Source of the DNA: Amphiscolops sp. MND2022
Taxonomy: Eukaryota
Length of the DNA: 64,000 nt
Direction of reading: 5' to 3'
Assembly: GCA_964187785.1 (NCBI GenBank)
Contig: OZ076409.1
Span: forward strand, 2,418,001-2,482,000
Positions 8,170 to 54,509 of this stretch are shown here, one piece after another. The translations under genes and the position numbers were made by a program. The notes beneath the pieces were generated by a model. The model did not search any database. It worked only from the letters and a program-made list of their open reading frames with translations, and was not told the DNA's origin. Position 1 is the first letter of the stretch. The number at the start of each line of letters is the position of its first letter.

Positions 8170-8475
8170 TCAAAAACAACCAAGAGATGTCAAAAACCCT
8201 GCAAACTGCTGTTGATTCATTATTTCAGTCTCGTTACTAATTCTGTTGATAACTTCTATTTTCGGTTCATCAGAGTCCAGCAAATTCTTCCCAAAAACAG
8301 CCACGTAAGGGTATCCCGCCATTTGGATGTCCTTCAATCTTCTGCCAATGGTGGAATTTGTGCGGTCGTCGAAAATGACGTCATTCAGTGATGAGTTGAC
8401 GCCCATGAAAAACTGTAAGACTTCAGCTGCTTGTTGTTCCTCTTTGCTGCCGCTTTTTGGCAGAACCACACAAAC
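8170..8475 (-). CDS. PARS2: Mitochondrial prolyl-tRNA synthetase, last coding exon (anticodon-binding domain)
   Basis: TTTCTTAG| acceptor; VCVVLPKSGSKE...DVIFDDRTNSTIGRRLKDIQMAGYPYVAVFGK...IEV, TGA stop; phase 0 with upstream exon. Confidence 0.93.
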   Translation of the reverse strand, partial: VCVVLPKSGSKEEQQAAEVLQFFMGVNSSLNDVIFDDRTNSTIGRRLKDIQMAGYPYVAVFGKNLLDSDEPKIEVINRISNETEIMNQQQFAGFLTSLGCF

Positions 8476-11577: not shown

Positions 11578-13906
11578 CTTCGAGCGACAGGTCCCGCAGC
11601 CATAATTGACTATCATCATGTGCATTTGAACCATATTACCAAGTTATTAGCTATGACGAATAGCTAAGGTTATATACGGCACGAGAATGCTCAAAATACA
11701 ATGAAACTGAAAAGAATTGCGGGTATTAATCCTATGAAGCTTAACTTTTTCGGCCTTTACCACTATATAAAAGGAAGGGCTGCCCTAGTTATCAATAGGA
11801 CGGTTGATATGTGACATCACTAGCAAGTATACTTTCAGTTCTAAAAATTAGCTGAATTGTGCATCAAACAACCTTCCAGCATCAGTGGACACCGTTGGAA
11901 ACGTATTCCAGAGGATGAATAACCTGTTAAAATTTGCGAATGGGGCAAAATCACGAAAAGATCCGAAATCATTTTTGTTTTCAATACAACGTAGTTGAAT
12001 ATCATTGCACAGCGAGGTGTGAATATAACTTAGTGTTGTCTTGATTTAATCGTTGCATATGACATCAAATCTCTCAGGAATATTGCGGTAATGCATAATA
12101 CCTTCTGTGCAGATATTCACTGGATAGAATACGTTAAGAACGGAAATTTCGCGGTTTTACGCTTCAAACAACCACATCATCAATAACTAATCAATCCACG
12201 AAAAAACAGGAATTTGAATAACCGATTTACCATTTGAATAAGAGATAATCTAATAACAGTCGAACCAAATGCTAATTTTGGACGTTACCTCGTAATGTGC
12301 TCATAAACCGGTTTTCTCGTTTCACTATTCCTCACAGAATAGTAGGCCCGCACCTTTAACGACCTGTGGGTGGTTTTCTCGTTTTACTGATTGCGATCCG
12401 AGTATTACTCGAAAAGAAGCAGAAGGCCCGCACCACGAACGACCTTTAATGTATGAAGTTTAATTGTTTGAGAAAAAACCCAAATTTGCGTAGAAAGACG
12501 TTCCACAGCGCATTTATCTCGTCTATTCGAGTACTTTCCGCATGCATCTAATTGCTTCGAGCTTTTCGCCTACAGTCTTAGGACTATATGGTTTGAGCGG
12601 AAATGATATGAGATCCCATTGAACCGATAACTAGTAAAAATCGGCTCATAAACTATTTCCGGAAGAATTTTCAATCGCAGTTTTTTCGACGGCAAATTCG
12701 CGTATCAATGAATTCTTTTATCCAGGCTAATATCACAGTCCTGAATGACGGTCAGTTCCTACACTGCCGCAGTTCCAAGTGGTTTGATTACAGGAAAGGA
12801 GCAAAGTCTGCAAAAAAATAAAAATTTGCCGTTTTCGTATTTCGTTATAAATACGCACCGGCCAAAAATTTCTGGAAAAACTGCTAAAGAACAAAATATT
12901 GCTGTTTTTCGAATCGTCTTGAAGCAATCCCTTGTGAGAAAACGGCCAAAAAAATCAAAAATGAACAGAACTATTAACAGAAAAAAGCTTGGAAAAAATT
13001 GGGAAAAAACGTAAATTTTCAGAATTTCAATCGCCATTTTCTCAACCACCAAAAAATGTAACACATTGAAACTTTAAACATGTGAAAGAAGTCGGATAGG
13101 ACGTATTTTATGCCGGGTCGACGTTGTTTGTAATGTAGAAATGAGCAAAATTAGTGAAAGCTCCAAAATTTTCGAAAAAAATTATGTTCGAAAAAAAATT
13201 TCGATATTGAATCGCTATTTTCTCACTGCCCGAAAATCCAACAACATTTAAATCTTCACCAACAAATTCAGTTCCAACAATTTGTTGAGTTTTTGGATGG
13301 TCTCGAAGTATTAGGCTCCGAGAAAATAGGCCAAAACTTTTACAAAATTGAATAAAGAGAGCAATTTATCAAAAATTCAAAAAATTTGAAAACTTTTTTG
13401 TCTCTATCTGTCCGACGTAATCGTTGTGACTTTCCAATTTCTAACTTTGGGCAGCTAAGCAGACCTGTTATCGAGTAGAAAGACCACTGCTTGGATTAGA
13501 ACTGATTGCTACTTGAAAAAAGGTTGAGAAATTTTTTATGCAAAAAAACCGAAAATTTTTCCTATTTTTAATGGTCATTTTCGCAAAGCCCAATAATTCT
13601 AGGATAAAAAAACTTTCACCAAATTAAAGAAAACATCGTTTTACGTCGGTTAGTACCTACATCGGGCCAATTCGCTGTGGTTTGCGAAAGGAAAAATAGC
13701 AAAATCGACAAAAACCCTAAATTTTCGAAAATTTCGCGCTTTCGAAGCTAATAAAATCGCGCCGGTGGAAAATTTTTGGAAAGTTTTTACACAGTTAGAA
13801 AGAGCATCAAGTTGCGTTTCTTTTTGGAAAGTTTGGATGGTCGCGGAAAAATAGGCTCTGAGGAAATAGCCTTCAATTAATACAAATGCAGAGGGTATGT
13901 CACGCG

Positions 13907-14060: not shown

Positions 14061-14847
14061 AGGCGCATAGAAAAAACAGCGGTCTTTAAAAAAACAAAAA
14101 TCGGATACAACGTGCTGGGCCTGAGAAAGCCTAATTTTAAGACAAAAATTATTCGATGTGAAAAATCTCACAATGCCGAAAACTGTAGAAAAAAGTGCCC
14201 GGGGGGGCACTTTGAGATTTTTTAACATCCATTCTGTTGCAAAATTTCAAAAAATTGAAGCGAGACTTGAAAAATTTTGCAAAAAAAACCAAAAAATGAG
14301 AATTTTCAACAGTCTCATAGTGCCGAAAAATCTGAAAAAAGGGACCCTTTGGGATTTTTTCACATTCGTTCTGTTGCAAAATACCAAAAAAATGAAGGGA
14401 GGAATCTTTGGTGACATGAAAAAAAATTGCAAAAAAAGCACAAAGCCGAAATAACATGCACAAAAAATTTTGGTCAAGGGCAAGACTTGAACCCACGTCC
14501 TTCTGCTTGGCAGACCTCAAATAATCCTAATTAACCTCTATGCCAAGTGCCAGAAGTTGCGACAAGTGCTGGAAGTTGGCCAACTGCCAGAAGTTGCCAC
14601 GGCCACAAATTCAAACTATGCGACTTGCGGTCTGAAACGAGAGTTGTCGCACGGAAAAAAAAGCACCCGCACTTTCTCATAACACTTGCTTATCGCAAGT
14701 GTAATGAAAAAACCACAAAAAAAGTCTCGAAAACCCTTTAGAAGTTAAAGTTTACTTCTGATATAACGTCAAAAGTTCGGCTACAGCGTGCTGGGACAAA
14801 TAGGAGCGCTTGTTTTGTATGTAGTCAAGTGTAGTTAGAATAGTTAC

Positions 14848-15014
14848 TTTGTAGGGTGATAAATTAGGAGGCCAGACAAATTGAGTGACGTCATCGTTGG
14901 TTGTTGCAGCCGCAGCAGTTGCCTCCATCACTGCAGCCAGAATGCGAGTCAGACCCAGTCCGTAACACCCCATTTGCATGCGAGACACATTCCCATTCAC
15001 ACCTCCTTGCTCGC
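14848..15014 (-). CDS. PARS2: PARS2 coding exon (class II motif 3)
   Basis: CCGTAG| acceptor in phase 1, AAA|GTAACT donor; MQMGCYGLGLTRILAAVME...WPPNLSPYK. Confidence 0.93.
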
Positions 15015-15350
15015 CTACGGTCATTTACATTATTGGTACAAGGAATCCATCAGTATTTTCCGCCCATATTATATGTATGTCGCGTTTTTTATACAAACTT
15101 CAACATACTCTAAGTTGTATTCAAAGAAAAACTCCATCCAGAGAATTCAACGGACAAAAACTTGGGTTCACAACGTATATTTTCAAAGATATTTGATCTT
15201 TTGTGAGAGAGTACCTAAAGCTGAACTTTTCAATTTTTTTGAGATCTTTTGAAAGTATGGTGCTAAAACCGCAGAGGGCGGAAAACATACCTGTTTGGAA
15301 GCGTTTTGTATTTTCATGTTATACTCGAAAAACCAGCATTCCCGAGTAAT

Positions 15351-15745
15351 AACCAGAGCATGTGCGGTAAAGGAATCGGATTAGGACTTTTTCCTTCTGA
15401 CTCGCTCGAATCCTTGTCATACGATTTTGATGGAATTGCACACATCAAGCGGTTCTTTCAAATCGTAGAGAGTTTTGAGAAAATCAAAAAATGTCCAAAA
15501 ATGACAGTTTTTTGGTAATTTTTCGGCTGATATTGTTTGTTTCTCAGATCCGCCATATGATTTTGATGCCTTGCACACATAGAACACTAAATGGTGTAAA
15601 ATGACTGTAGAAAATTAATCATATGAACAGTTTATGAGAAAGCCAAAAAATTCTGAAATGACCGACTTTGGTCATTCTTAGCTATGTTTGTCAGATCCCA
15701 GTCATACGATTTCAATGCCACTGCGCACGCAGGAGCACCTATAAC
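15351..15745 (-). mobile_element. Helentron-type family C fragment (satellite-bearing family)
   Basis: Starts AACCAGAGC..GCGGTAAAGGA.TCGG as at 50313 and 37672; contains diverged copies of the 172-bp unit. Confidence 0.55.
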
Positions 15746-15820
15746 CATCTATGGATTTTTGGTAAAAAGACACTATTTTTTGGCATCCTTCATTTAGAAC
15801 CAAAAGGTCGCAACTTTTAA

Positions 15821-16350
15821 CACTAATTGACCTGGGCGTTTTTGCAAATTTTCAAAAATTCGGATTAAAAATTTTAAATCATTATTATCTCCACAACTAC
15901 GTGTACCAGAGAAACGAACTATAGCGCGTTTGAAAGGTCTGGTATTGGGCTTTCATTTTGGTCTGGTGAGTCCCTGTCGCCGCGCGCCCCTTCCTTCAGA
16001 AGCGCGGGGGCTTGTAGTAACAACTGAATATTATTGGGATTTGTTGCGTAAGAACATGTTGTGCAAGTGTATGGGGTTGGTTTTTGCTATGGGTGAAAAT
16101 TGTTTTGAGAAAACTGGATTTTACCAAAAACGGAAATTTGGAAAAAAGTGAACATTTTTTGTGCAAAAAATTACTTTTTTTCTCAGTTTTGGAGACATAT
16201 TCACTTTAATTAATGCCTGGGCCATTCAAACCAATCTAGGTATCAATGAACTGTTGAATGAAAACTGTCAGAGAATATGGGCTGCTGGCAAACGGAATCA
16301 GAAATTGAAAAAATGGTGACTGCTTTAAAGTACTACCAGGTTAATTAGGG
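15821..16350. mobile_element. piggyBac-like MITE
   Basis: TTAA on both sides; TIR CACTAATTGACCTGG / CCAGGTTAATTAGGG; a reverse-oriented relative lies at 41475-41990. Confidence 0.75.
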
Positions 16351-16423
16351 TTAATCAATTTGTAATAAAATTTATACTCTCATTAACATTCAAGTTACAA
16401 CTACAAAGAAGATTGCTGCATAC

Positions 16424-16574
16424 CTTGTAGGGTGCATTTGAAGACAGAACTGTATTTGTCGCCCAAAATGAACGTGTGACCCAATTCGATTGTTTGGTGA
16501 CTGGAGGGAGTGCCAGAACCACTGGTTTTAGCAAGCGATGACTCAACTTCCGGGTGGAAAAAGGTGTCCGAATC
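16424..16574 (-). CDS. PARS2: PARS2 coding exon
   Basis: TTTTGTCTAG| acceptor, CAAG|GTATGC donor (phase 1); DSDTFFHPEVESSLAKTSGSGTPSSHQTIELGHTFILGDKYSSVFKCTLQ matches GIEVGHTFYLGTKYSS. Confidence 0.92.
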
Positions 16575-17174
16575 CTAGACAAAAACCCAATATAAAAGTT
16601 ACAGAAACACCATAGTTCGAAAGTTCACATCATTTAGTGGACTAATTCCTGCTGTTGAATGAAAATCCGCATCCAGTTCGTTTCCACCGAAACTTTCGTA
16701 GCAACACATGATATTTAAAGAATACCGAAAGCGAGTGCGTTATGTTTATTGACGACACGAGAATGACGTGACAGGAGAATGACAGGAGAAAAATGACGTA
16801 AAGAACGTCTATCTTAACCTGACGTTGACTTATATCATTTTTTGTTCACTCCCAGACATGATTTTGATGTCAAAAGTGCTCTATTGGACCTTCGGTGGTG
16901 ACTAAATCACCACGATGATTTACGCGCTTCATTCGCTTTTAAAAATGTTGTTTTACATACTGGGTCGAATCCAAGGCCGTTCGTGGTGCGAGCCTTCTGA
17001 TTCGTTCACAGAACAACTGTGTGCGTTATTAGTAAAACGGAAAACCACCCCAGGTCGTTTAAGGTGCGGGCCTACTATTCCGTGAGGAATAGTGAAACGA
17101 GAAAACCGGTTTTTGATGTCATGATCGAAGTTACGTATCTGTAAACGTTTTTGTTTATCCATTAAATTATGAGT

Positions 17175-17468
17175 TTCTTAGGTTTAGGTCAAGTTTCTTT
17201 TGCTTGTGTTTTTCCGGCTTAGGTTACCAGGAATAAATTTCTTAGGATTACATTTCTTAGGTTTATATCTCTTAGGCTTAGGTTTCTTAGGATCATATTT
17301 CTTACGATTAGCTTTCTTAGGCTTAGGTTTCTTATGATTAGGTTACTTAGGCTTAGGTTTCTTAGGCTTACGTTTCTAAGATTTAGGTGTCTTAGGCTTA
17401 GGTGTCTTCGGCTTAGGTGGGTTAGGCTTAGGTTTTCTAAATTGGTTCTTGGGTTTAGGTTTCATAGG
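17175..17468 (+). repeat. Degenerate TTAGG(C/T)-rich simple repeat, present in each array unit
   Basis: Many TTAGGC / TTAGGT / TTTCTTAGG motifs in tandem. Confidence 0.85.
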
Positions 17469-18029
17469 CCAACTAACATTTTAAATTATGTTTTCATTTT
17501 TACAGGATCAGCAGCTCTTCGTCTTCGAGCCCAGCTGCAGCAGGGGAAAGAAATGAACATTTTCAAGATAATCTTCAAGAATGTGAACAGTTGATCATTT
17601 CTATTTCAAGAGTGTTCAAGAAAAATTCAAGATTCAGCTTTCAATCTTTTTTTTTACAAGAGTGTGCCGAAAGAAGGATTTCCAAGAGTGTGCCAGAAAG
17701 GAAGAAATCAAGCTTCAGCAGCCACATTTTTTTTTAAAAAAAAGCGTTACGGATCCAAATTTTCTCAATCACTAAATTTATTCTAAAACCAATATTTCAT
17801 TTTTTGGTTATTATCAAATAACATTCTACTTTCCTTACTTTTAAAGAAAAAAATAATAATGTTAACGTTGTTATTCTCATTCCACGTCAGTTGTAATATA
17901 ACAAAACCTCAAGCTCAGATATTGATTCAGCCCGCTAATACTGAAGCAATATTTTTCATTTGACGATTTTGGTTTTATGGAATTTTGACCATGATTAAAG
18001 AGTCTCCGTTTTCAGTTATTCTCTCCTTT

Positions 18030-18631
18030 ATGGTCAAGGTATTGGTTATTGGTGATAGTCACCATGAAAGAATCAGGATAAGTAATTTGAACTTTGCAGC
18101 AGACGTTGACGCTCGTGGCGGAAAAAAAGCCCATCATCTCTCGGAAAACACTTTTAACACCATTTTAAAAAATACGATGCAATCTTTGTTCTCCTTGGTG
18201 GCAATGGCGTTCACTCTCATGATTACTATAACCCTAACCCAAAAACGTCAACGGAAACGGCTGAACAATTAATCAGTAGTCAATTTGTTCTAGAAACACT
18301 GCATTTGGTTCTGTTCAAATTCACTTATGAAGAAATGTCGAAAATTCTAGCCACAACATTTATCTGAAATATTTGACTTTTCTATTTTTAAAAAAATCAT
18401 AAATGGTTCTTCTCTTAAATTTACTACTGTATAAGAACTTCAACGCTTCTGCAATGAGGACTGCATGAAGATTGTTACATCTTTGGTGTTCTGCCGCGAC
18501 TGGACTGCCCGGAGATACCCCAATTAAATGAGCTGCTATTTAAAAGCATTCATTCAAATTTTGTTGGATCTGCAAAAATTGTGGAAATTAGCCATGTTGA
18601 CAAGCGAGATCGTGTGCATTTGAGAAAATGA
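18030..18631 (+). pseudogene. SGNH/GDSL hydrolase pseudogene, array unit 1
   Basis: Block I VLVIGDSH, block II RGG, block III IFVLLGGN (after a frameshift in an A-run), probable intron, then IFGVLPR..LNELL..DKRDRVHL (block V DxxH). Confidence 0.75.
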
Positions 18632-20475
18632 GTATTATGAACTGACAACGCTCATTAACAAACTTTACAAAGATGCCTATACTGATGACTCAGATGAATA
18701 AAACGAAACATTTGTAAAATTCAATCTTTTCTTCCCGTAAAGTTATGGTTCAGAAAATTTTTTTTACAAATCACATTTTTATTTGATCCTGTTATGTAGT
18801 TCACATTGGTAAGACGTGTAAACCTAACCCTAGTAGTTTCTTCTCTCGAAATCCCCAAAAACTTCAAACATTTCTCAGTTTTTTTGTATCGATAACGTTC
18901 CATAAAAACTGCAGGTGTCTACACTAATTTGATGCTTTTAAGCAATTAACAATTTCATTTATACTCATCTGAAACAATTTTGTTGAATTTGGCGTCTCAT
19001 CCATTCGAACTTCAGTAAAGTGGCAGAAATTTAGTTACTTAGCAATGAAATATGTTTTACATCATTCTCAGTTTCGAAAAGAATGAAATAAAATATGGTG
19101 TCGGGTGAAAAAAGGTGTCCGAATCCTAGACAAAAACCCAATATAAAAGTTACAGAAACACCATAGTTCGAAAGTTCACATCATTTAGTGGACTAATTCC
19201 TGCTGTTGAATGAAAATCCGCATCCAGTTCGTTTCCACCGAAACTTTCGTAGCAACACATGATATTTAAAGAATACCGAAAGCGAGTGCGTTATGTTTAT
19301 TGACGACACGAGAATGACGTGACAGGAGAATGACAGGAGAAAAATGACGTAAAGAACGTCTATCTTAACCTGACGTTGACTTATATCATTTTTTGTTCAC
19401 TCCCAGACATGATTTTGATGTCAAAAGTGCTCTATTGGACCTTCGGTGGTGACTAAATCACCACGATGATTTACGCGCTTCATTCGCTTTTAAAAATGTT
19501 GTTTTACATACTGGGTCGAATCCAAGGCCGTTCGTGGTGCGAGCCTTCTGATTCGTTCACAGAACAACTGTGTGCGTTATTAGTAAAACGGAAAACCACC
19601 CCAGGTCGTTTAAGGTGCGGGCCTACTATTCCGTGAGGAATAGTGAAACGAGAAAACCGGTTTTTGATGTCATGATCGAAGTTACGTATCCGTAAACGTT
19701 TTTGTTTATCCATTAAATTATGAGTTTCTTGAGTTTAGGTCAAGTTTCTTTTGCTTGTGTTTTTCCGGCTTAGGTTACCAGGAATAAATTTCTTAGGATT
19801 ACATTTCTTAGGTTTATATCTCTTAGGCTTAGGTTTCTTAGGATCATATTTCTTACGATTAGCTTTCTTAGGCTTAGGTTTTCTAAATTGGTTCTTGGGT
19901 TTAGGTTTCATAGGCCAACTAACATTTTAAATTATGTTTTCATTTTTACAGGATCAGCAGCTCTTCGTCTTCGAGCCCAGCTGCAGCAGGGGAAAGAAAT
20001 GAACATTTTCAAGATAATCTTCAAGAATGTGAACAGTTGATCATTTCTATTTCAAGAGTGTTCAAGAAAAATTCAAGATTCAGCTTTCAATCTTTTTTTT
20101 TACAAGAGTGTGCCGAAAGAAGGATTTCCAAGAGTGTGCCAGAAAGGAAGAAATCAAGCTTCAGCAGCCACATTTTTTTAAAAAAAAAAGCGTTACGGAT
20201 CCAAATTTTCTCAATCACTAAATTTATTCTAAAACCAATATTTCATTTTTTGGTTATTATCAAATAACATTCTACTTTCCTTACTTTTAAAGAAAAAAAT
20301 AATAATGTTAACGTTGTTATTCTCATTCCACGTCAGTTGTAATATAACAAAACCTCAAGCTCAGATATTGATTCAGCCCGCTAATACTGAAGCAATATTT
20401 TTCATTTGACGATTTTGGTTTTATGGAATTTTGACCATGATTAAAGAGTCTCCGTTTTCAGTTATTCTCTCCTTT

Positions 20476-21077
20476 ATGGTCAAGGTATTGGTTATTGGTG
20501 ATAGTCACCATGAAAGAATCAGGATAAGTAATTTGAACTTTGCAGCAGACGTTGACGCTCGTGGCGGAAAAAAAGCCCATCATCTCTCGGAAAACACTTT
20601 TAACACCATTTTAAAAAATACGATGCAATCTTTGTTCTCCTTGGTGGCAATGGCGTTCACTCTCATGATTACTATAACCCTAACCCAAAAACGTCAACGG
20701 AAACGGCTGAACAATTAATCAGTAGTCAATTTGTTCTAGAAACACTGCATTTGGTTCTGTTCAAATTCACTTATGAAGAAATGTCGAAAATTCTAGCCAC
20801 AACATTTATCTGAAATATTTGACTTTTCTATTTTTAAAAAAATCATAAATGGTTCTTCTCTTAAATTTACTACTGTATAAGAACTTCAACGCTTCTGCAA
20901 TGAGGACTGCATGAAGATTGTTACATCTTTGGTGTTCTGCCGCGACTGGACTGCCCGGAGATACCCCAATTAAATGAGCTGCTATTTAAAAGCATTCATT
21001 CAAATTTTGTTGGATCTGCAAAAATTGTGGAAATTAGCCATGTTGACAAGCGAGATCGTGTGCATTTGAGAAAATGA
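20476..21077 (+). pseudogene. SGNH hydrolase pseudogene, array unit 2
   Basis: Copy of 18030-18631 with the same frameshift. Confidence 0.75.
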
Positions 21078-23026
21078 GTATTATGAACTGACAACGCTCA
21101 TTAACAAACTTTACAAAGATGCCTATACTGATGACTCAGATGAATAAAACGAAACATTTGTAAAATTCAATCTTTTCTTCCCGTAAAGTTATGGTTCAGA
21201 AAATTTTTTTTACAAATCACATTTTTATTTGATCCTGTTATGTAGTTCACATTGGTAAGACGTGTAAACCTAACCCTAGTAGTTTCTTCTCTCGAAATCC
21301 CCAAAAACTTCAATTTCTCAGTTTTTTTTGTATCGATAACGTTCCATAAAAACTGCAGGTGTCTACACTAATTTGATGCTTTTAAGCAATTAACAATTTC
21401 ATTTATACTCATCTGAAACAATTTTGTTGAATTTGGCGTCTCATCCATTCGAACTTCAGTAAAGTGGCAGAAATTTAGTTACTTAGCAATGAAATATCTG
21501 TTTTACATCATTCTCAGTTTCGAAAAGAATGAAATAAAATATGGTGTCGGGTGAAAAAAGGTGTCCGAATCCTAGACAAAAACCCAATATAAAAGTTACA
21601 GAAACACCATAGTTCGAAAGTTCACATCATTTAGTGGACTAATTCCTGCTGTTGAATGAAAATCCGCATCCAGTTCGTTTCCACCGAAACTTTCGTAGCA
21701 ACACATGATATTTAAAGAATACCGAAAGCGAGTGCGTTATGTTTATTGACGACACGAGAATGACGTGACAGGAGAATGACAGGAGAAAAATGACGTAAAG
21801 AACGTCTATCTTAACCTGACGTAGACTTATGTCATTTTTTGTTCACTCCCAGACATGATTTTGATGTCAAAAGTGCTCTATTGGACCTTCGGTGGTGACT
21901 AAATCACCACGATGATTTACGCGCTTCATTCGCTTTTAAAAATGTTGTTTTACATACTGGGTCGAATCCAAGGCCGTTCGTGGTGCGAGCCTTCTGATTC
22001 GTTCACAGAACAACTGTGTGCGTTATTAGTAAAACGGAAAACCACCCCAGGTCGTTTAAGGTGCGGGCCTACTATTCCGTGAGGAATAGTGAAACGAGAA
22101 AACCGGTTTTTGATGTCATGATCGAAGTTACGTATCCGTAAACGTTTTTGTTTATCCATTAAATTATGAGTTTCTTAGGTTTAGGTCAAGTTTCTTTTGC
22201 TTGTGTTTTTCCGGCTTAGGTTACCAGGAATAAATTTCTTAGGATTACATTTCTTAGGTTTATATCTCTTAGGCTTAGGTTTCTCAGGATCATATTTCTT
22301 ACGATTAGCTTTCTTAGGCTTAGGTTTCTTATGATTAGGTTACTTAGGCTTAGGTTTCTTAGGCTTACGTTTCTAAGATTTAGGTGTCTTAGGCTTAGGT
22401 GTCTTCGGCTTAGGTGGGTTAGGCTTAGGTTTTCTAAATTGGTTCTTGGGTTTAGGTTTCATAGGCCAACTAACATTTTAAATTATGTTTTCATTTTTAC
22501 AGGATCAGCAGCTCTTCGTCTTCGAGCCCAGCTGCAGCAGGGGAAAGAAATGAACATTTTCAAGATAATCTTCAAGAATGTGAACAGTTGATCATTTCTA
22601 TTTCAAGAGTGTTCAAGAAAAATTCAAGATTCAGCTTTCAATCTTTTTTTTACAAGAGTGTGCCGAAAGAAGGATTTCCAAGAGTGTGCCAGAAAGGAAG
22701 AAATCAAGCTTCAGCAGCCACATTTTTTTTAAAAAAAAAAGCGTTACGGATCCAAATTTTCTCAATCACTAAATTTATTCTAAAACCAATATTTCATTTT
22801 TTGGTTATTATCAAATAACATTCTACTTTCCTTACTTTTAAAGAAAAAAATAATAATGTTAACGTTGTTATTCTCATTCCACGTCAGTTGTAATATAACA
22901 AAACCTCAAGCTCAGATATTGATTCAGCCCGCTAATACTGAAGCAATATTTTTCATTTGACGATTTTGGTTTTATGGAATTTTGACCATGATTAAAGAGT
23001 CTCCGTTTTCAGTTATTCTCTCCTTT

Positions 23027-23628
23027 ATGGTCAAGGTATTGGTTATTGGTGATAGTCACCATGAAAGAATCAGGATAAGTAATTTGAACTTTGCAGCAGA
23101 CGTTGACGCTCGTGGCGGAAAAAAAGCCCATCATCTCTCGGAAAACACTTTTAACACCATTTTAAAAAATACGATGCAATCTTTGTTCTCCTTGGTGGCA
23201 ATGGCGTTCACTCTCATGATTACTATAACCCTAACCCAAAAACGTCAACGGAAACGGCTGAACAATTGATCAGTAGTCAATTTGTTCTAGAAACACTGCA
23301 TTTGGTTCTGTTCAAATTCACTTATGAAGAAATGTCGAAAATTCTAGCCACAACATTTATCTGAAATATTTGACTTTTCTATTTTTAAAAAAATCATAAA
23401 TGGTTCTTCTCTTAAATTTACTACTGTATAAGAACTTCAACGCTTCTGCAATGAGGACTGCATGAAGATTGTTACATCTTTGGTGTTCTGCCGCGACTGG
23501 ACTGCCCGGAGATACCCCAATTAAATGAGCTGCTATTTAAAAGCATTCATTCAAATTTTGTTGGATCTGCAAAAATTGTGGAAATTAGCCATGTTGACAA
23601 GCGAGATCGTGTGCATTTGAGAAAATGA
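23027..23628 (+). pseudogene. SGNH hydrolase pseudogene, array unit 3
   Basis: Copy of 18030-18631 with the same frameshift. Confidence 0.75.
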
Positions 23629-25582
23629 GTATTATGAACTGACAACGCTCATTAACAAACTTTACAAAGATGCCTATACTGATGACTCAGATGAATAAAA
23701 CGAAACATTTGTAAAATTCAATCTTTTCTTCCCGTAAAGTTATGGTTCAGAAAATTTTTTTTACAAATCACATTTTTATTTGATCCTGTTATGTAGTTCA
23801 CATTGGTAAGACGTGTAAACCTAACCCTAGTAGTTTCTTCTCTCGAAACCCCCAAAAACTCCAAACATTTCTCAGTTTTTTTGTATCGATAACGTTCCAT
23901 AAAAACTGCAGGTGTCTACACTAATTTGATGCTTTTAAGCAATTAACAATTTCATTTATACTCATCTGAAACAATTTTGTTGAATTTGGCGTCTCATCCA
24001 TTCGAACTTCAGTAAAGTGACAGAAATTTAGTTACTTAGCAATGAAATATCTGTTTTACATCATTCTCAGTTTCGAAAAGAATGAAATAAAATATGGTGT
24101 CGGGTGAAAAAAGGTGTCCGAATCCTAGAAAAAAACCCAATATAAAAGTTACAGAAACACCATAGTTCGAAAGTTCACACCATTTAGTGGACTAAATCCT
24201 GCTGTTGAATGAAATTCCGCATCAGGTTCGTTTCCACCGAAACTTTCGTAGCAATACATGATGTTTATGGAATACCGAAAGCGAGTGCGTAATGTTTATT
24301 GACGACACGAGAATGACGTGACAGGAGAATGACAGGAGAAAAATGACTTAAAGAGGGTCTCTCTATCTTAACCTGACGTTGACTTGTTATTTTTTGTTCA
24401 CTCCCACAGACACGATTTTGATGTCAGAAGTGCTTCATTGAACCTTCGGTCGTGACTAACTCTTTCCCACGATGATTTACGCGCTTCATTCGCTTTTAAA
24501 AATGTTGTTTTACATACTGGGTCGAATCCAAGGCCGTTCGTGGTGCGGGCCTTCTGATTCGTTCACAGAACAACTGTGTTCGTTATTAGTAAAACGGAAA
24601 ACCACCCCAGGTCGTTTAAGGTGCGGGCCTACTATTCCGTGAGGAATAGTGAAACGAGAAAACCGGTTTTTGATGTCATGATCGAAGTTACGTATCCGTA
24701 AACGTTTTTGTTTATCCATTAAATTATGGCTTTCTCAGGTTTAGGTCAAGATTCTTTTGCTTGTGTTTTTTCGGCTTAGGTTACCAGGAATGAATTTCTT
24801 AGGATTACATTTCTTAGGTTTATATCTCTTAGGCTTAGGTTTCTTAGGATCATATTTCTTACGATTAGCTTTCTTAGGCTTAGATTTCTTATGATTAGGT
24901 TACTTAGGCTTAGGTTTCTTAGGCTTACGTTTCTAAGATTTAGGTGTCTTAGGCTTAGGTGTCTTCGGCTTAGGTGGGTTAGGCTTAGGTTTTCTAAATT
25001 GGTTCTTGGGTTTAGGTTTCATAGGCCAACTAACATTTTAAATTATGTTTTCATTTTTACAGGATCAGCAGCTCTTCGTCTTCGAGCCCAGCTGCAGCAG
25101 GGGAAAGAAATGAACATTTTCAAGATAATCTTCAAGAATGTGAACAGTTAATCATTTCTATTTCAAGAGTGTTCAAGAAAAATTCAAGATTCAGCTTTCA
25201 ATCTTTTTTACAAGAGTGTGCTTAAAGAAGGATTTCCAAGAGTGTGCCAGAAATGAAGAAATCAAGCTTCAGCAGCCACATTTTTTTTAAAAAAAGCGTT
25301 ACTGATCCAAATTTTCTCAATCACTAAATTTATTCTAAAACCAATATTTCATTTTTTGGTTATTATCAAATAACATTCTACTTTCCTTACTTTTAAAGAA
25401 AAAAAATAATAATGTTAACGTTGTTATTCTCATTCCACGTCAGTTGTAATATAACAAAACCTCAAGCTCAGATATTGATTCAGCCCGCTAATACTGAAGC
25501 AATATTTTTCATTTGACGATTTTGGTTTTATGGAATTTTGACCATGATTAAAGAGTCTCCGTTTTCAGTTATTCTCTCCTTT

Positions 25583-26165
25583 ATGGTCAAGGTATTGGTT
25601 ATTGGTGATAGTCACCATGAAAGAATCAGGATAAGTAATTTGAACTTTGCAGCAGACGTTGACGCTCGTGGCGGAAAAAAAGCCCATCATCTCTCGGAAA
25701 ACACTTTTAACACCATTTTAAAAAATACGATGCAATCTTTGTTCTCCTTGGTGGCAATGGCGTTCACTCTCATGATTACTATAACCCTAACCCAAAAACG
25801 TCAACGGAAACGGCTGAACAATTAATCAGTAGTCAATTTGTTCTAGAAACACTGCATTTGGTTCTGTTCAAATTCACTTATGAAGAAATGTCGAAAATTC
25901 TAGCCACAACATTTATCTGAAATATTTGACTTTTCTATTTTTAAAAAAATCATAAATGGTTCTTCTCTTAAATTTACTACTGTATAAGAAATTCAACGCT
26001 TCTGCAATGAGGACTGCATGAAGATTGTTACATCTTTGGTGTTCTGCCGCGACTGGACTGCCCGGAGATACCCCAATGAGCATTCATTCAAATTTTGTTG
26101 GATCTGCAAAAATTGTGGAAATTAGCCATGTTGACAAGCGAGATCGTGTGCATTTGAGAAAATGA
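25583..26165 (+). pseudogene. SGNH hydrolase pseudogene, array unit 4
   Basis: Copy with an additional ~19-nt deletion near 26075. Confidence 0.75.
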
Positions 26166-29100
26166 GTATTATGTACTGACAACGCTCATTAACAAACTTT
26201 ACAAAGATGCCTATACTGATGACTCAGATAAATAAAACGAAACATTTGTAAAATTCAGTCTTTTCTTCCCGTAAAGTTATGGTTCAGAAAAAAATTTTTT
26301 ACAAATCACATTTTTATTTGATCCTGTTATGTAGTTCACATTGGTAAGACGTGTAAACCTAACCCTAGTAGTTTCTTCTCTCGAAACCCCCAAAAACTCC
26401 AAACATTTCTCAGTTTTTTTGTATCGATAACGTTCCATAAAAACTGCAGGTGTCTACACTAACTTGATGCTTTTAAGCAAATAACAATTTCATTTATACT
26501 CATCTGAAACAATTTTGTTGAATTTGGCGTCTCATCCATTCGAACTTCAGTAAAGTGGCAGAAATTTAGTTACATAGCAATGAAATATCTGTTTTACATC
26601 ATTTTCAGTTTCGAAAAGAATGAAATAAAATATAAAGATTACTGAGACTGGTGTCTGACCCATTCTGGGTAGTAACAGTGCCGGAGTTTCACCTAAGAAT
26701 TCCATTACAGATTTACAACTTTGTGAATACAAGTAAAAATACAACAATATAGATTGTAAATGTTGCTGAAACTGGTGTCTGACCTTATGGTGTTAACAGT
26801 ACCAGAAAATCAATTACAATTAGAAATAAACATAATTGCTACATCTTTTTGAGAAAAAAAGCTATGTAAAGTTTGCATAGGAAAGGTGTTTGACTTTTTC
26901 TAGATGAGAGCAGTGCGAGAATTACACTTAAATAGACATGAAACAATCCCCATTTCTTTTGACCATATCCATCAGATATTTGATCATTATAAACGTTACT
27001 GGGACTGGTGTCCGACGGTATTGAGTGTTAACAGTACCAGAAAATCAGTAACATTTACGAATGAACAAATTGCTATCATCGGTTTCAAATTAAGATAAAA
27101 GGAAAAAATCTGCTAACTGCAAATTGTTCCTTCAGTTTCAAATCAAAAACGCAAATCATGCCAGTAATCAATAACTAACTGTCCCTTGAAGAGGCTACCA
27201 CAGATCTTCATTACTTGTTGACGATGCTCCATGCAAAAAAGTGCATAAAGACTGTCTTTTTTCAAAGTTACGAATGGCCAGCGATCGAAGCACGAAAGTG
27301 CCTTCATAAAAACTCATTTTGTTGCGTAAATTTCGCAGTGACAAAATTGTTGCCATTTTCACTACGAATCAAACTGATAATGCTCAACTGCTGCGTTATT
27401 GCAGCAAACTTGTACCTGGTGTCGTGTGCGCTCTAATATGACCGAAGTTTGAGTCAAAAAATATGGGTACAACTTCCTCAACACCCATTATCACTACAGT
27501 GGAGCCTTTAGTCCCAATGAACTTGAAAGAGCTGCCGATTGTGTCCTGTCCCCGAGTGGTGTCGTCCGCGGACTTTTTACAGTTCCTCATCCAAACAAAT
27601 CACTTGTAACTGTCAAATGTAGATGCCGTTACGTCCGTATGCAATGGCATATTTTGCGACGGGCAACCACGTGCTCATTGTCCCTGCTTAGAGATTGACA
27701 ACAGAAAAACAGATTGGGCAATTTCTGCGGACATCGTTCGTCCAGAGCTGTTTCACTCGGCTGTCATTAGATCGAAACGATTACTTTCTTTTTGCCCCTT
27801 TGTGTAGAAATGCCGACCCGAACAAAAACTCGGTGTCCTAGATTTGGATGATTCTGTGAAAAAGCGCGTCAATCAAGTTAATGCAAATAGCGGATGGTTC
27901 TTGTGATCGATGCTTTATTGTGAACGAATCACATCTTCGCCGCTTCATGTTCTACCCAAAAAAGTGTGCAAAAACACCCAGCCGTCTTTGGATGCAATAT
28001 TTCAACGAACCATGTTGAAAGAATATCTTTGTGCGATCCATGGTTAAATTACTGCACCAATGGTCGTAGATCTTCATGGAAAGGAAGGCGTTTGACCGTG
28101 TGTTGTGCTAGACTTCAATGAAAAGTCTCCTATCGGAGGTAGTCGCCGACGATGCAACCATTTTCGAAGACCTTACAATGAAACTTGAAATCTGATAAAA
28201 TAGAGCCAATAAAAAAATCCACAACAAATTTTGTTTTCCTCAAGTGCGGTGCTCGATTGGATGTACATAATTTGTTGGTGAGAGGAACTATTCCTAATAA
28301 TATATCTTCAATAAAAAGGACCCCAAGTTCACGTACAACCTCACTAATTGGAAATCACGGCTGAACTCTCTCAGACCAGACTGGTCACAAGAGTATAACT
28401 AAAACGACTTTTTACTCTGAAGCCAAATGTAATGGTAGATAATGTCAATAGGTTGTGTATGGCTACATGTAAATTTCACAAGGGTGGATCAAGTAAACAC
28501 ATTGTTCATCCTCCAGCTAATCCAACTGGAAAGGCTGCCAAACAAGTTTGCCGACCGTTTGGCAGAGCAACTGTGAGTTAAAACTGTTACAAACCGACGA
28601 AACCGAACTAATTAACCCATACGTATTCAATGGGAATCGCCAAAGGCAGTCTTGCTGGTATTAGTTCCACCACTGTTTCGATGAAAAAATGGGATGCTGC
28701 GTTTGGAAAGGACGATGTTTCCCGTGAATTTTTGTGTTGCAACAAGCGCAAGGACATCCAGTTGCTTTTGCAAAAACGGGTTTCAAAAGAACTCTCACAC
28801 GATCTACTCAATAGTATCAGCTCAACTGATGTTTTGCCCATGCCGACCACATTTCCAACAGTCTTCAGATGACCACATCAGTTCCCATGAATCAGGCTCT
28901 GGCGCTGGAAAAATTCAGGAAACAGGACTGGTGGCGGATTATTTTCCTATTTTTCCCATTTGACAACTACGGATTCCACCCGTCCGACTTGAATTTTGCC
29001 AACATTGACCAACTTCATTTCTGGTGCTTTTCGGTAATGTTTTCATCGAGTACAACTTTTCATTCCTCTTTACTGGAATCAACGAGTATTGAAGAAAAAT

Positions 29101-30545
29101 CCCTTTGCAACATATTCGAGATGATGCTTTCCATTGGGGCTAAGAAGCCAACAAAACGACAACGATCGGAGTTGGAGTCCTTTTTTGCTACCAGTTTCCA
29201 AAATATTACATCTAATTATGTGAACAATTTGAAGATAACACTTTCCAGAATAATTTTTCAAACTATCAAGAAGTTACCCGAGAATATGTTGAGCAAACTT
29301 TAACATCCTGTTGTACAGAGAAAGGTGTTTCGTTCGTGACCTCTTCCAGAGGGAGTTGCATCCAATGCATCCTGTTTACCTGATCGACTAATATCAAGTA
29401 ATGGAATAGATACCTATGAATTGAGATCAATTACTCTTTTTGAACAAAAGAATGCAAAAACAGTTGACAAACGGCGGAGTAATTTCCTGCTGGTGGTTGT
29501 ACTCTAGGTCCTCAAAATCGCCTTCAAAAGTGGATGTTGCTGATATTGTTGAAATGGGTCGATATCACATGAATTGGTCCTTCTGCCATTACGAGCTGAT
29601 AGATTCCATTGATTCGCGCTAATTAAAGTACCAATATTTGGAATATTATGGGGGGGGCAGGGAAAGTTCATTTGCCACAACCACCAAATGCCACTAACTG
29701 TTAACCCCAAACACAACAACCAATGTTCGATCGGAAAATCTTGCAAACGAATAGTTAAATGAAAATGCCCATCTGATGATTGTTCTTCTGCAATTTGTGA
29801 AAAACATTCCAAAACATCTAGTCTTGACGGAGGCCGCCTTTTTGTAAAACCAACTCCAATTGTAAAAACAAATAATGAAGAAATAACAACGAGTCATGCA
29901 GAAACACACATCCACAGACGTTTCGGACACAGAATCGGAAGTAAAAGATTTTTCTTTCGTCAATAACGCAACTGACGCTGGTCTTAATGCCACCGCAACT
30001 GAATTCAGCGTTACTGATTCCGGTTGCATGTGTGATAGATCAAAACGACAAGACAATGCCAGTGCAGATACTGCTGAACAGTGACTGCCTAGTACTCCAG
30101 AAGTATTGCTTCAGAAACGACTGTAAAAAAGCCACAATGTTTTGCAGAAACCGCTTCGCATGCTGATTCTGTTCCTCTTTTTTACCCCGAAGGTGCGCTT
30201 TTTTCGACACTTTGTATCACGAACAAGCTGATATACAATAACGGGGCTATACCTGCTCCTCTCTACAGTGTGAAAGTTAGCAAACAATTCAGCTTTGCTT
30301 CAGTTGAGAATCACAAAAAGGACGGCCTTGTTGAATCCGAATCTTTTACAGTCAACAGAAATCCGAAGCATCCAGACTTCATTTGACTGTTTTCAACCAT
30401 CAACTAAAATTTCCCGTCAAGCTTTGTTCTCAATCGTGATTTTCAGGAAGTTCCATCAAATGAACATAAAACTATCACACCAGACAACGTGATACTGTAA
30501 TTTGAGGAGGCTGATTCCAGAGTTCGCGAGAACAAACTTGCTGCT

Positions 30546-31250
30546 TTGTTGTCAGAGAAACCACCAGCTTTCTTCTTGACATTAACATGCAACCAGGAAG
30601 AACATTTAAGAGTAAAACCAATTTTTCACGCGTTAAAAACTAAGTATGACCGATGCAACAAAGAAGAGAGGGAAAAAGCAGTTCAAGCAGAATTTGTGCT
30701 GCTTACGAGGGCATGGTATCGTTCCGCTGAGGCTCTCCTGCAATATATTGAAAAATCCCCTGAAAAGTCTTTAGGTACAGTCACCAAGATTTGGTCCCGG
30801 TACGAGTTCCAGTCTGCAGAAAGAAATCTACCGCACATTCATGACATTATCTGGACGAAGGAACTCGAAGAGTTGAAAGTAAAAGTTGTCTGTGCAAGTA
30901 ATTCCGCGTTGTTTGAGTTCAAACTTATTTGTGAACCGACCTTCCAGATTTGATGGATCAACTGATGCAGTTCCAAACATGCGAAAAGGTCAGTTTCCGA
31001 TGCCACACTGTGACAAAAGACGATGGCTCCTCAACTTGTAGAGTGCCCCGCTATCCTTTCGCTACACGTTACACCTGGCGAAAAGTGCCTTCTTGCCACA
31101 CCGACGGAGCACTAGAACAACTTTATCACTTAACTTTGGCCGTTCCTTCTCCCACACAAGACAACAACTTTGAAGTTCGCCCTATACTGCAAGGAGGTAA
31201 ATTCGAGTACCCTGCTTCTGCTGACAAAATTCTATCACCATTTAAAAAAA
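30546..31250 (+). pseudogene. Helitron-like HUH Rep endonuclease domain (disrupted)
   Basis: Motif 1 FFLTLTCN, motif 2 WSRYEFQSAERNLPHIHDIIW, then Q..TC....RC........CRVPRYP; catalytic YxxKY motif not found (deleted). Confidence 0.8.
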
Positions 31251-31299
31251 TCCGATGGTCACATTCAGCAAGTTCGCGCATCAGGTACTCCATATAAGC

Positions 31300-31900
31300 T
31301 TTTTGAAACAACTGATGAAATCTGTCTCGCCAAGAGCAAAATTTGGACGACTGTAACTGACTCTGAACAAGTAACGAACCACCGGAACAAGGTGAACGAA
31401 CCGAAACTCATTGTTTATCCGAAGGCGTTGTTGAGAGTCACACTCAACATGAAAGAGGAACAACTGTCTCATAGTCAAGTAGGAGTGGTTCATGAAGTTC
31501 CCACTGGTGACTCGGTCACATTTTGCATACCCGACAGCAGCGGAGGCGAAGTAACCATTACCTTTGAAAGAATCGAATAGGAACAATATTTGACCTGGAG
31601 GTCTGTGACTTTTAGAAAACAAATGGGATTAGTGCAGGCTTTTAGGAAAAAAGTCAGTAAGACATCAGCAGCTCCCTCTGATGAATTCCTTTGCCTGACA
31701 ACGCACAAGCTCACGGGTGACATGTTTGACAAACTCGCAACGTCAATCTCGGCCAACGGAAATAATGCCCTGCGGATGACGTCCCAGGGTTCCGTCATAT
31801 TCAGTCAAGTGAAGCAACAAAAAAACCTGACTTTTGTCGGACCGAAATCGGAAACTTTGAATGCTGTGAGGAAAATTTTAGAGACAGACGTGAAGAACAT
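31300..31900 (+). pseudogene. C-terminal remnant of a PIF1-family helicase
   Basis: KLIVYPKALLRVTLNM....SHSQVGVV (2B region), LCLTTHKLTGDMF (motif V-like), SQGSVIFSQVKQQKNLTFVG (motif VI-like); Walker A/B region missing. Confidence 0.7.
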
Positions 31901-31999
31901 ATGTTTAGCTTAATGGATCGCATTAGGAATAACTCACGCTCTGGTTCCACCGTCGAGACCATTATCTCTAGAATGCTGTTCGTTCAGTTTAACAAAATG

Positions 32000-32318
32000 A
32001 TACCAGAGACACCAAATGTTTATCTTCTGACAAGTGTCAATCCAAACTCGGCAGGAACTTTTTACATCGGCCAAACAAGTAGGGCGTTGTTGAACTAGTT
32101 TCTAGGGGCACAATACCGGGAATAGCGCTGAATTCACGAAAGTACACCACCGACTACCGTGGGCTGTTGCCGCTTTTATTTGTAACTTTGCGTCCTCGAA
32201 TTCCCAGAAAGATTTAAAAGAACTACATCGTCGTAAAATTGCTTGGCGGCACACTTTAAAATCTCTAGAAGAAATGATTGCACTTTTCCACAAAAAGTTT
32301 GATTCCAAGTTATTATGA
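32000..32318 (+). pseudogene. GIY-YIG (SLX1-like) endonuclease domain, disrupted
   Basis: VYLLTS.....TFYIGQT, then after a frameshift/stop HNTGNSAEFTKVHHRLPWAVAAFICNF. Confidence 0.75.
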
Positions 32319-37042: not shown

Positions 37043-37249
37043 AGGACACTTGTACAGGGTATCCTCGCCAACTTCAGCCAGCAGGTGAAACTCGTGTGAC
37101 AAAAGTCCCCCCATGGCCCCAGAGGGTGCTGCTACCTCCACCAGCAGCCGGGAGAGGCCAATCTCTCGGAACAAGAGTCTATAAGCCGTTCTCACTTCGT
37201 CGTAGAAGCGAGAACAGTCGTCAAGGTCACTGTGGAAACTGTACATGTC
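37043..37249 (-). CDS. PARS2: PARS2 coding exon
   Basis: CCTGAAG| acceptor, CCT|GTAAGT donor; DMYSFH...AYRLLF...GAMGGLLSHEFHLLAEVGEDTLYKCP. Confidence 0.95.
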
Positions 37250-37671
37250 CTTCAGGCGAACCAAGATTGGAATTGAAATTATGTAATCACTTAAACAGTT
37301 ACGGAAAAAACGAAGATCAGATGTTAAATTGAATGCATTTCGGAAAATATTCCATATGCACTGTTTCATAAGTTTATCACAACAATTAGGCTATCACGCG
37401 ACAACGTCTAAGAAATCAAATATTCGTCGTCTAATGTGGGTGAAGTATCGAGAGGTTGAAACAGCCAACAATCAAAACCGACAGCAGTGAAACGATCATT
37501 GTTCTCTTATTTTTGAACCTCCAAAAAGCTCAAATTTTCGACATTTGAATGTTATTACGGTGGCATGAAAGGGCACTTGACGATTAAGGAGCACCGGAAA
37601 ATACGCCTTGAAAACCTAATGCTGAAGTAAAATCTATTCAGCCACAACTTTGGCTACTATTTATCTTGTAA

Positions 37672-38422: not shown

Positions 38423-39081
38423 GCGAGCGAGATTAATGTCTAAATGCAAAACGGGAATAACGTCTAAAGCCAAGTCATGCTCATTCCCTATCTTAATACA
38501 GTCAACTCCGGTTATTTCGGATCTTCGTCCAATTTGTACGTTTCTGAGACCCCCACCTCGTAAAGACAATCAAAGTAATGCCATCCGGTTACTTCGTATT
38601 TCCCATTATTCGTACTATTATTTCATTCGGTCGGCGGATTCCACTGTACATCGAATTTTAGACGTTATTCCGGAAATACTTTCAGACGACGTTATTCGCG
38701 CGTATATCTAAAACTATTCATTCAATCATTTGTTAATCCCGCCATTGATGCCATCATTGAAGAGGGAAGACTGTCTTAAAACAAATAATGCTCTGACTTT
38801 TTAAAAGTAGTTGAGGCATCTGCTTGGGAAGGTACCCTTTCGTGAAAAGAAGTCATTATAAATCAGTAAGCATAAAATTCGGAAATTTTTTCGGAGTACG
38901 TTCTTCTCTTTTGGAGGTACCTTTTCTAGACGGGATCATAGGCAGATGTCTCCCACGTACACGACTAACTTTCATTATTATTCCCATAATATTTTTCAAT
39001 GACTCATTTGACTGTACCGCCTTTTATTGTATTTTTATCCTAATTCACTTTTTTAATTCAATCATTCCAATCGGGGCGTGC

Positions 39082-39351
39082 CTTCATGGTGAACTCTCGC
39101 GATCTGAGCAAGCCATTTTTGGGTCTGGGCTCGTCTCTGAATTTGGGGCCTATCTGGTAGAGGGCAACGGGTAGTTGAGCAGAGGTCAAATTGCATTGGG
39201 CAACTAGGGAAGTGATGAGTTCCTCGAAAGTGGGCGAGAGACAGAATTCGCTTTTGCTTCTATCTTGTACAACCAGCAGCTCCGAAGCCATCAACTCATC
39301 TCGGCCGCTCTGCTTCCACAGACTCCGCGGACACAGAACTGGAAGAGACAT
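39082..39351 (-). CDS. PARS2: PARS2 coding exon (motif 2), ends at a GC donor
   Basis: GATAG| acceptor; MSLPVLCPRSLWKQSGR...FCLSPTFEELIT...QLPVALYQIGPKFRDEPRPKNGLLRSREFTMK|; donor AAG|GCACGC. Confidence 0.95.
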
Positions 39352-47415: not shown

Positions 47416-47610
47416 CTTCTGGACTGCTGGCAACCTCTTCATGTGCTTGTCCACAATGCGACACAGCTTTTCCAGAGATCTGGTCAGTTCCGGAGAGTGG
47501 GCGAACAGCCCGGCAGCCCCCGCGTGCTGGATCAGTCCGTTCATGGCCATGTACTTGTGACTGAAGCAAGATATCTGGGCCAGCGAGTCTTTGTACTGCA
47601 GTCGAGAGGC
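47416..47610 (-). CDS. PARS2: PARS2 coding exon (motif 1)
   Basis: GAACAG| acceptor (in-frame stop just upstream), AAG|GTACGT donor; ASRLQYKDSLAQISCFSHKYMAMNGLIQHAGAAGLFAHSPELTRSLEKLCRIVDKHMKRLPAVQK; not listed in this frame in the ORF track. Confidence 0.92.
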
Positions 47611-54458: not shown

Positions 54459-54509
54459 CTCAATTCGACAGTATGATATGAGCCCCAGTATGAAATTGCT
54501 AACCAACTA

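What the first reader, a model, noticed from the sequence alone, without database searches (positions are those of the whole stretch)
16551..26633. Tandem array re-copies PARS2's own splice acceptor, creating three decoy 3' splice sites
Seen: each unit starts with the first 24 nt of the PARS2 exon (DSDTFFHP) plus its acceptor and upstream intron. The transcript therefore meets ..CTAG|GATTCGGACACC at 24124, 21571 and 19125 before the real site at 16574. Each decoy runs into an in-frame TAA after 22 codons, with a donor-like AA|GTAACT shortly after. The CP-to-IE spacing (28 aa) resembles other PARS2 proteins, so the 24 nt look native. Inference: potential poison exons or stepwise splice sites in an essential gene; alternatively an assembly artefact.
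Basis: partly seen in the sequence, partly recalled or inferred. Interest (0 to 1): 0.7.

Follow-up and report, generated by a model that had tools for sequence, protein, structure and literature searches.

The report
Kilobase "mirage" repeat in worm PARS2
In a probable acoel worm, the last 2.5 kb of an intron plus the first 24 bases of the next exon of the mitochondrial prolyl-tRNA synthetase gene sit in four tandem copies, a long-unit version of the "mirage" repeats known from lancelets, and splicing likely skips the three spare splice sites, though no RNA data were available to show it.

Summary
Four 2.4-2.55 kb units (16551-26633, minus strand) each end in the PARS2 intron-3 acceptor plus 24 exon bases, joined by three identical junctions. 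The 24 nt are native: TFFHPEV matches Convolutriloba macropyga TFYHPEV across the break. Stepwise (recursive) splicing fails, because no donor is regenerated. The decoy donor is unremarkable (6/9; 48 of 58 other intronic acceptors have one as good), and the sequence after the 24 nt is intron-like (26% GC against 46.5%). The best reading is one intragenic tandem duplication, likely joined by error-prone end-joining (the junction is an 8-nt inverted copy of nearby sequence), then expanded by unequal exchange. The decoys are likely skipped by exon definition, with some leak to decay. Copy differences look evolved, so an artefact is unlikely but untested: no genome or reads were available. It works like amphioxus mirages (units 10-160 bp; PMC3087553) but with units 15 or more times longer. 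This scan has already reported the same kind of repeat in six windows from other genomes.

The parts
24101..26633 (-). Unit A (first met by the transcript, most diverged edge copy)
21548..24095 (-). Unit B
19102..21542 (-). Unit C (105-nt deletion in the 15-bp-period TTAGG-like tract)
16551..19096 (-). Unit D, ending in the authentic acceptor and first 24 nt of exon 4
24093..24100 (-). Junction 1: 5-nt spacer plus first 3 nt of the next unit, an exact inverted copy of the 8 nt at -40..-33 of the acceptor (same at 21547-21540 and 19101-19094)
24036..24124 (-). Decoy pseudo-exon 1 (89 nt; stop at 24058-24056; weak donor after 24036)
21483..21571 (-). Decoy pseudo-exon 2 (89 nt)
19039..19125 (-). 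Decoy pseudo-exon 3 (87 nt)
24125..24469 (-). Pre-acceptor segment of unit A, about 10% diverged from B/C/D against 1.3-1.5% for the rest of the unit
47416..47586 (-). PARS2 exon 1 (homologous part only; true 5' end not defined)
39082..39351 (-). PARS2 exon 2 (GC donor)
37043..37249 (-). PARS2 exon 3, donor CCT|GTAAGT of the 20,468-nt intron 3
16424..16574 (-). PARS2 exon 4 (151 nt, donor AAG|GTATGC)
14848..15014 (-). PARS2 exon 5 (donor AAA|GTAACT)
8170..8475 (-). PARS2 exon 6 with stop codon
30501..30953 (+). Helitron Rep fragment of a decayed element in the same intron, beside the array (neighbour; no part in the array shown)
   Evidence: (PF14214, E 6.6e-10)

Best explanation
This is a four-copy tandem repeat of the 3' end of PARS2 intron 3 plus 24 exon bases, likely a tolerated by-product of one DNA duplication that later expanded, whose three extra acceptors are likely skipped most of the time. 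Shown: the anatomy, three identical junctions, native 24 nt, and a stop in every decoy. Inferred origin: a break 24 nt into exon 4 was extended and rejoined 2.5 kb upstream by polymerase-theta-type end-joining, leaving a short templated insertion; unequal exchange then copied that one junction, homogenising B, C and D while edge copy A stayed apart. Inferred splicing: in a 20-kb intron, exons are picked by definition across the exon. The real exon offers 151 nt at 48% GC and a 7/9 donor; each decoy turns into U-rich 26% GC sequence after 24 nt and has only a 6/9 donor, so the last acceptor would win. A minority leak is expected because decoys are transcribed 2.5-7.5 kb earlier; those RNAs would carry a premature stop and be degraded.
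For: Single origin: same junction 3 of 3 times. Evolved copies: B/C/D differ by 6-10 substitutions per pair, C and D share 2 derived sites against A and B, and C lacks 105 nt (7 x 15) of the minisatellite; no N in the window. Gene intact: open 423-aa model, 53% identical to C. macropyga. Junction 8-mer is an inverted copy of -40..-33; chance about 0.003 for that one template class; C. elegans tandem duplications of 100 bp-10 kb carry microhomology and templated insertions (PMC8654963, passages). Decoy body GC 25-26% after nt 24 against 46.5% for the real exon and 43-57% for all 6 exons. 58 other acceptor-like sites at least as pyrimidine-rich lie in the non-array part of the intron, 48 of 58 with a donor of 6/9 or better, 20 of 58 with 7/9 or better. 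Engineered analogue: a duplicated beta-globin acceptor with a short exon stub gave proximal:distal 1/6 when coupled to transcription and 1/25 uncoupled (PMC1450099, passages); only distal use in PMC5389562 (passages). Amphioxus mirages do not disturb splicing by RT-PCR and show internal homogenisation with excluded edges (PMC3087553, passages).
Against: No RNA or read evidence for this locus at all. This gene uses weak sites (GC donor, AAG acceptor, AAA|GTAACT donor), so a TAA|GTAACT donor may work in this animal. Decoy 1 has a slightly more pyrimidine-rich tract than the real site (11 against 10 of 16). PMC1450099 reports more upstream use when the competing exon is delayed by a longer intron, which is the case here. 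The splice scores are simple consensus counts, not a species-trained model. A 7-nt direct copy 17-22 nt upstream of the array head and a 6-nt direct copy in the exon stub explain the junction almost as well. The 10% patch in unit A is not explained.
Confidence: 0.66

Rival explanations
1. The decoys are used substantially as poison exons (exon 3 to decoy, decoy donor to exon 4 or the next decoy), so the array is a hypomorphic or dose-tuning allele cleared by nonsense-mediated decay.
For: Branch region, tract and AG are exact or near-exact copies. The decoy donor matches the real exon-5 donor from -2 to +6. Decoys are transcribed first, and delay favours upstream sites (PMC1450099). Stops lie 336-338 nt before the last junction. 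Boundary-crossing duplications did rewire splicing in cat TYR (PMC6590430, first of two parts of the text) and potato RdRp (PMC4974935, passages).
Against: Intron-like composition after 24 nt and an ordinary donor score. No sign that decoys are being kept or removed by selection: B/C/D are too young to tell. Mirages elsewhere are skipped (PMC3087553, PMC3902484).
Confidence: 0.18
2. The array is wholly or partly an assembly product, for example two alleles (A-type and D-type) or reads from different animals joined in tandem, or a wrong copy number.
For: A differs from B/C/D by 2.5%, and by 10% in the last 345 nt (34 of 338 against 29 of 2160, P 1e-14), which looks allelic. One published acoel assembly came from pooled wild animals and is stated to be under-collapsed (PMC9911081, part 1 of 4 and passages); I did not establish that this window comes from it.
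Against: An assembler does not invent a novel junction with a templated insertion three times. B, C and D carry private and shared substitutions outside homopolymers and a 105-nt indel. No gap in the window.
Confidence: 0.1
3. The neighbouring Helitron made the array by rolling-circle copying with cryptic ends (origin only; splicing outcome as in the best explanation).
For: A decayed Helitron (PF14214) lies within about 4 kb of the array head. A 47-nt motif repeated three times lies at the head, and its 6-nt core recurs in the exon stub, the junction and inverted near 32376 and 32536. Helentron-type elements have been linked to gene duplications (PMC4067079, passages).
Against: The unit shares no sequence with the Helitron body beyond that short motif. 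No near-perfect 12-15 bp subterminal inverted repeat pairing the two ends appeared among the 25 longest of 144 pairs. The array lies upstream of the ORF, while end-bypass is usually described at the 3' end (recalled). The element is broken by many stops.
Confidence: 0.1
4. The decoys are stepwise (recursive) splice sites that remove the 20-kb intron in pieces.
For: Long intron with evenly spaced acceptors.
Against: Ratchet points are juxtaposed acceptor and donor sites (PMC8605326, abstract). Here the acceptor is followed by GATTCG, and the only GT or GC before the stop is at +65 in phase 2, so an intermediate could not be re-spliced to the normal mRNA.
Confidence: 0.02

Closest known systems
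Amphioxus 'mirages' (Adh3, globins BflGb6/BflGb9, troponin C, PGBD5); PMC3087553 and PMC3902484, passages
   Same: Tandem copies of an intron 3' end plus the 5' part of the next exon, upstream of the authentic exon (as in BflGb6); internal copies homogenised, edge copy apart.
   Different: Mirage units are 10-160 bp minisatellites; here 2.45-2.55 kb, mostly intron and repeat-derived sequence, with a defined novel junction. Normal splicing was shown by RT-PCR there and is untested here.
Potato RdRp tandem duplication across an intron-exon boundary (PMC4974935, passages)
   Same: [quoted passage not shown]
   Different: There a cryptic GTAAG inside the duplicated exon piece created a new in-frame intron. 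Here the 24-nt piece has no GT or GC, so that route is closed; four copies rather than two.
Engineered beta-globin 3' splice-site duplications (wt14, 3'D-14/55/205); PMC1450099 and PMC5389562, passages; original Reed and Maniatis 1986 not read
   Same: Identical proximal acceptor with a short exon stub competes with the distal full exon.
   Different: Small introns in human extracts, and the wt14 proximal exon has no donor; here a natural 20-kb intron with three decoys, each with a weak donor.
Polymerase-theta-joined tandem duplications of C. elegans (PMC8654963, passages)
   Same: Size range 100 bp-10 kb, microhomology and templated insertion at the junction.
   Different: Seen in repair mutants as two-copy events; here inferred from one junction, with later expansion.

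Membership tests
Mirage repeats | Head-to-tail repeat spanning an intron/exon boundary | tested here: met
Mirage repeats | Minisatellite-sized unit (10-160 bp in the described cases) | tested here: not met
   Periods 2553, 2446 and 2551 nt against PMC3087553; so 'works like', not filed as a member
Mirage repeats | Internal homogenisation with boundary copies excluded | tested here: met
   B/C/D 0.25-0.41%, A 2.5-2.65%; only the upstream edge copy is excluded
Mirage repeats | mRNA uses the authentic site only | not testable with these tools
   No run was listed; no transcript-derived protein of this species surfaced
Mirage repeats | Copy number varies between haplotypes | not testable with these tools
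   No genome held, no runs listed
Recursive splice site (ratchet point / RS-exon) | Acceptor directly followed by a donor (AG|GT) | tested here: not met
   AG|GATTCG at 3 of 3 decoys
Poison exon | Acceptor and donor enclosing a premature stop upstream of a later junction | tested here: met
   donor only 6/9
Poison exon | Measurable, regulated inclusion, usually conserved | not testable with these tools
   No RNA data; B/C/D nearly identical, so the array is too young for a conservation signal
Intron gain by boundary-crossing duplication (potato RdRp type) | Cryptic donor in the duplicated exon piece that restores the frame | tested here: not met
   Only GT before the stop is at +65, phase 2
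Helitron/Helentron-derived tandem array | Unit bounded by element termini (12-15 bp subTIRs and 3' palindrome, or TC...CTRR) | tested here: inconclusive
   No convincing subTIR; only a 6-nt shared core; other family copies not available
PARS2 (mitochondrial prolyl-tRNA synthetase) | Full-length similarity to annotated PARS2 | tested here: met
   220 of 415 identical to C. macropyga PARS2; best named hit; alignment

The most novel reading that the evidence does not exclude
The array is a copy-number dial on an essential gene: each 2.5-kb unit adds a leaky poison exon, and the junction's templated inverted copy forms a decoy-only RNA stem around the branch point and acceptor that damps the leak, so the repair scar itself made the duplication survivable. 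The stem (-40..-33 with +25..+32) has pairing probability 0.63-0.98 in 8 of 9 decoy folds and cannot form at the real exon, but it did not lower predicted accessibility of the acceptor region (0.48 against 0.47 unpaired).
Probability: 0.07. Interest if true: 0.6.

Novelty: new variant of a known kind. Interest (0 to 1): 0.22.

Why it matters
Modestly. It extends mirage-type boundary repeats from minisatellites to kilobase units and to a probable acoel, and it is a natural version of the classic duplicated-acceptor experiment: same branch region, tract and first 24 exon bases, different downstream context, with a marker base at +18 that tells decoy from real junctions. It would measure how much exon definition and transcription delay matter in an animal with weak splice sites. 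It also warns annotators that junction reads with under 18 nt overhang map equally to four acceptors. Without RNA it shows no new mechanism.

Tried and rejected
Whole genome: none held. Sequencing runs for 14700-19300: none was listed, so no reads were laid; this is no evidence either way. Protein searches for a transcript-derived PARS2 or a decoy product: exon 2 query best hit 66%; exon 3 query returned only the window's own unspliced ORF at 100%, on 1 contig; exon 4 query 0 of 5 candidates scored; weak negatives. Unit as an RNA-gene array: Rfam gave 1 sub-threshold match outside the array in 14000-40000, ARAGORN 0 genes. Unit as coding: 4 unit ORFs among 25 scanned had no Pfam match above cut-off. 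Unit as a dispersed element: only a 166-nt piece recurs elsewhere in the window (12282-12446); no look-alike in the scan's notes. Hidden exon at 36973 (CNSCRD...): rejected, it runs into a stop and the C. macropyga alignment needs no extra residues. Hairpin silencing: stem predicted, but fold z only -1.15 and -1.54, and 63% of 150 random heads left the region as paired or more. Literature: 10 searches; none listed a paper on this locus, but no search named PARS2, and most subscription papers are not held. No supplements were opened; the BflGb6 alignment in PMC3087553's supplement was not seen.

Full report
Observation. Self-alignment shows one array at 16551-26633. On the minus strand it has four units: A 26633-24101, B 24095-21548, C 21542-19102 and D 19096-16551, with the same 5-nt spacer at all three junctions. 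Each unit ends in the acceptor and 24 exon bases, so the transcript meets acceptors at 24124, 21571 and 19125 before 16574. All three decoys read 22 codons and then TAA, with TAA|GTAACT at +89, +89 and +87.

The gene. The best named hit is PARS2 of the acoel Convolutriloba macropyga (64% over exon 2), so the animal is probably an acoel. Six exons (47586-47416, 39351-39082, 37249-37043, 16574-16424, 15014-14848, 8475-8170) give an open 423-residue model, 220 of 415 residues identical to that protein. KC-PDSD-TFFHPEV aligns without a gap to KC-SNCA-TFYHPEV, and the array's breakpoint falls between HP and EV, so the 24 nt are native exon. Intron 3 is 20,468 nt, and would be 12,918 nt without the three extra units.

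Is the array real? No genome was held and no run was listed, so this rests on internal evidence. B, C and D differ by 6-10 substitutions per pair (0.25-0.41%); A differs by 63-64 (about 2.5%). C and D share two changes against A and B, each copy has private changes, and C lacks 105 nt of a 15-bp-period tract. The window has no N. This looks like evolved copies. Against it, A's divergence is patchy: 34 of 338 sites in the last 345 nt before the acceptor against 29 of 2160 before that, which looks like a piece of another allele; and one acoel assembly is described as pooled and under-collapsed (PMC9911081, part 1 of 4 and passages; not shown to be this window's source). I put artefact at about 10%.

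Origin (inferred). Three identical junctions mean one joining event, later copied. The spacer plus the next three bases is an exact 8-nt inverted copy of positions -40..-33 of the acceptor; a random intronic 5-mer would do that with probability about 0.003. A 7-nt direct copy just upstream of the array head and a 6-nt copy in the exon stub are alternative templates. Either way it resembles the microhomology and templated insertions of polymerase-theta-joined tandem duplications of 100 bp-10 kb (PMC8654963, passages). A decayed Helitron lies beside the array (PF14214, E 6.6e-10), but the unit shares only a short motif with that region and no clear terminal repeats were found.

Splicing (inferred). 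Recursive splicing needs a donor next to the acceptor (PMC8605326, abstract). Here exon 3 joined to a decoy gives CCT|GATTCG, and the only GT or GC before the stop is at +65, out of frame. So a decoy is either skipped or ruins the message: inclusion truncates the protein at 238 residues, 336-338 nt upstream of the last junction, before the region aligning with the C-terminal half of PARS2. For skipping: after base 24 the decoys are 25-26% GC and 38-40% T, against 46.5% and 26% for the real exon; their donor scores 6/9 against 7/9, 7/9, 7/9 and 8/9 for the four GT donors; and 58 other acceptor-like sites in the non-array intron are at least as pyrimidine-rich, 48 of them with an equal or better donor. 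For leak: the real exon-5 donor is AAA|GTAACT, the gene also uses a GC donor and an AAG acceptor, decoy 1 has a slightly better tract than the real site, and decoys are made first. The engineered analogue gave proximal:distal 1/6 when coupled to transcription and 1/25 uncoupled, with more upstream use when the competitor was delayed (PMC1450099, passages); another laboratory saw distal use only (PMC5389562, passages). Mostly skipped with a minority leak is the best guess. The scores are simple consensus counts of my own.

A side result. The inverted junction copy creates a stem that only decoys can form, enclosing branch region, tract and AG. It is predicted with probability 0.63-0.98 in 8 of 9 decoy folds (0.13 in the ninth), yet the -45..-4 region is no less accessible than at the real exon (0.48 against 0.47) or with random downstream sequence (mean 0.44, n = 150). 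It stays a low-probability lead.

Comparison with what is known. The scan's earlier notes pointed me to amphioxus mirages, which I checked in PMC3087553 and PMC3902484 (passages): tandem copies of intron/exon boundaries, units 10-160 bp, homogenised inside with edges excluded, not disturbing splicing. This array shares the anatomy and the turnover pattern but fails the unit-size feature, so it works like a mirage without being filed as one. Boundary-crossing duplications that did change splicing are known from potato RdRp (PMC4974935, passages) and cat TYR (PMC6590430, first of two parts); the potato route needs a donor inside the exon piece, which is absent here.

Verdict. Real anatomy, known kind, long-unit variant; no evidence of regulation. 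Interest 0.22.

Noticed in passing
window 37250-39081 (-): PARS2 intron 2 is a GC-AG intron with a weak AAG acceptor and a 6-nt direct repeat (TGAAGG) across both ends; no GT alternative fits the homology.
   Followed up: partly
window 16424-16574 and 37043-37050 (-): This PARS2 keeps only the first of the cysteines that form CxxC...CxxC-like pairs in C. macropyga and vertebrate PARS2 between the ends of exons 3 and 4; a zinc-knuckle role for them is recalled, not tested.
   Followed up: no
window about 27200-32100 (+): Decayed Helitron (PF14214 at 30501-30953, helicase-like fragments to about 31900 by eye) in the same intron, with three copies of a 47-nt motif at 26614, 26738 and 26971 and two 58-nt copies at 32337 and 32497.
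   Followed up: partly
window 24125-24469 (-): Unit A's last 345 nt are 10% diverged from B/C/D while the rest is 1.3-1.5%; the switch falls at a short hairpin that differs between A and D yet can pair in both (by eye). Unexplained.
   Followed up: partly
window 48164-55224 and 56419-61688: A second, patchwork duplication upstream of the gene (pieces 89-97% identical, reordered) with a 172-bp, 6-copy tandem array at 50402-51424.
   Followed up: no
window 43600-45300 (+): Broken non-LTR retrotransposon-like ORFs in PARS2 intron 1 (weak RVT_1 match, E 0.08).
   Followed up: no
window 61900-63897 (-): Two exons of a ribosomal protein L23-like gene (name recalled from the translation).
   Followed up: no
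window 17238-17468, 19780-19881, 22235-22465, 24795-24992: 15-bp-period minisatellite built on TTAGG-like words inside each unit.
   Followed up: no
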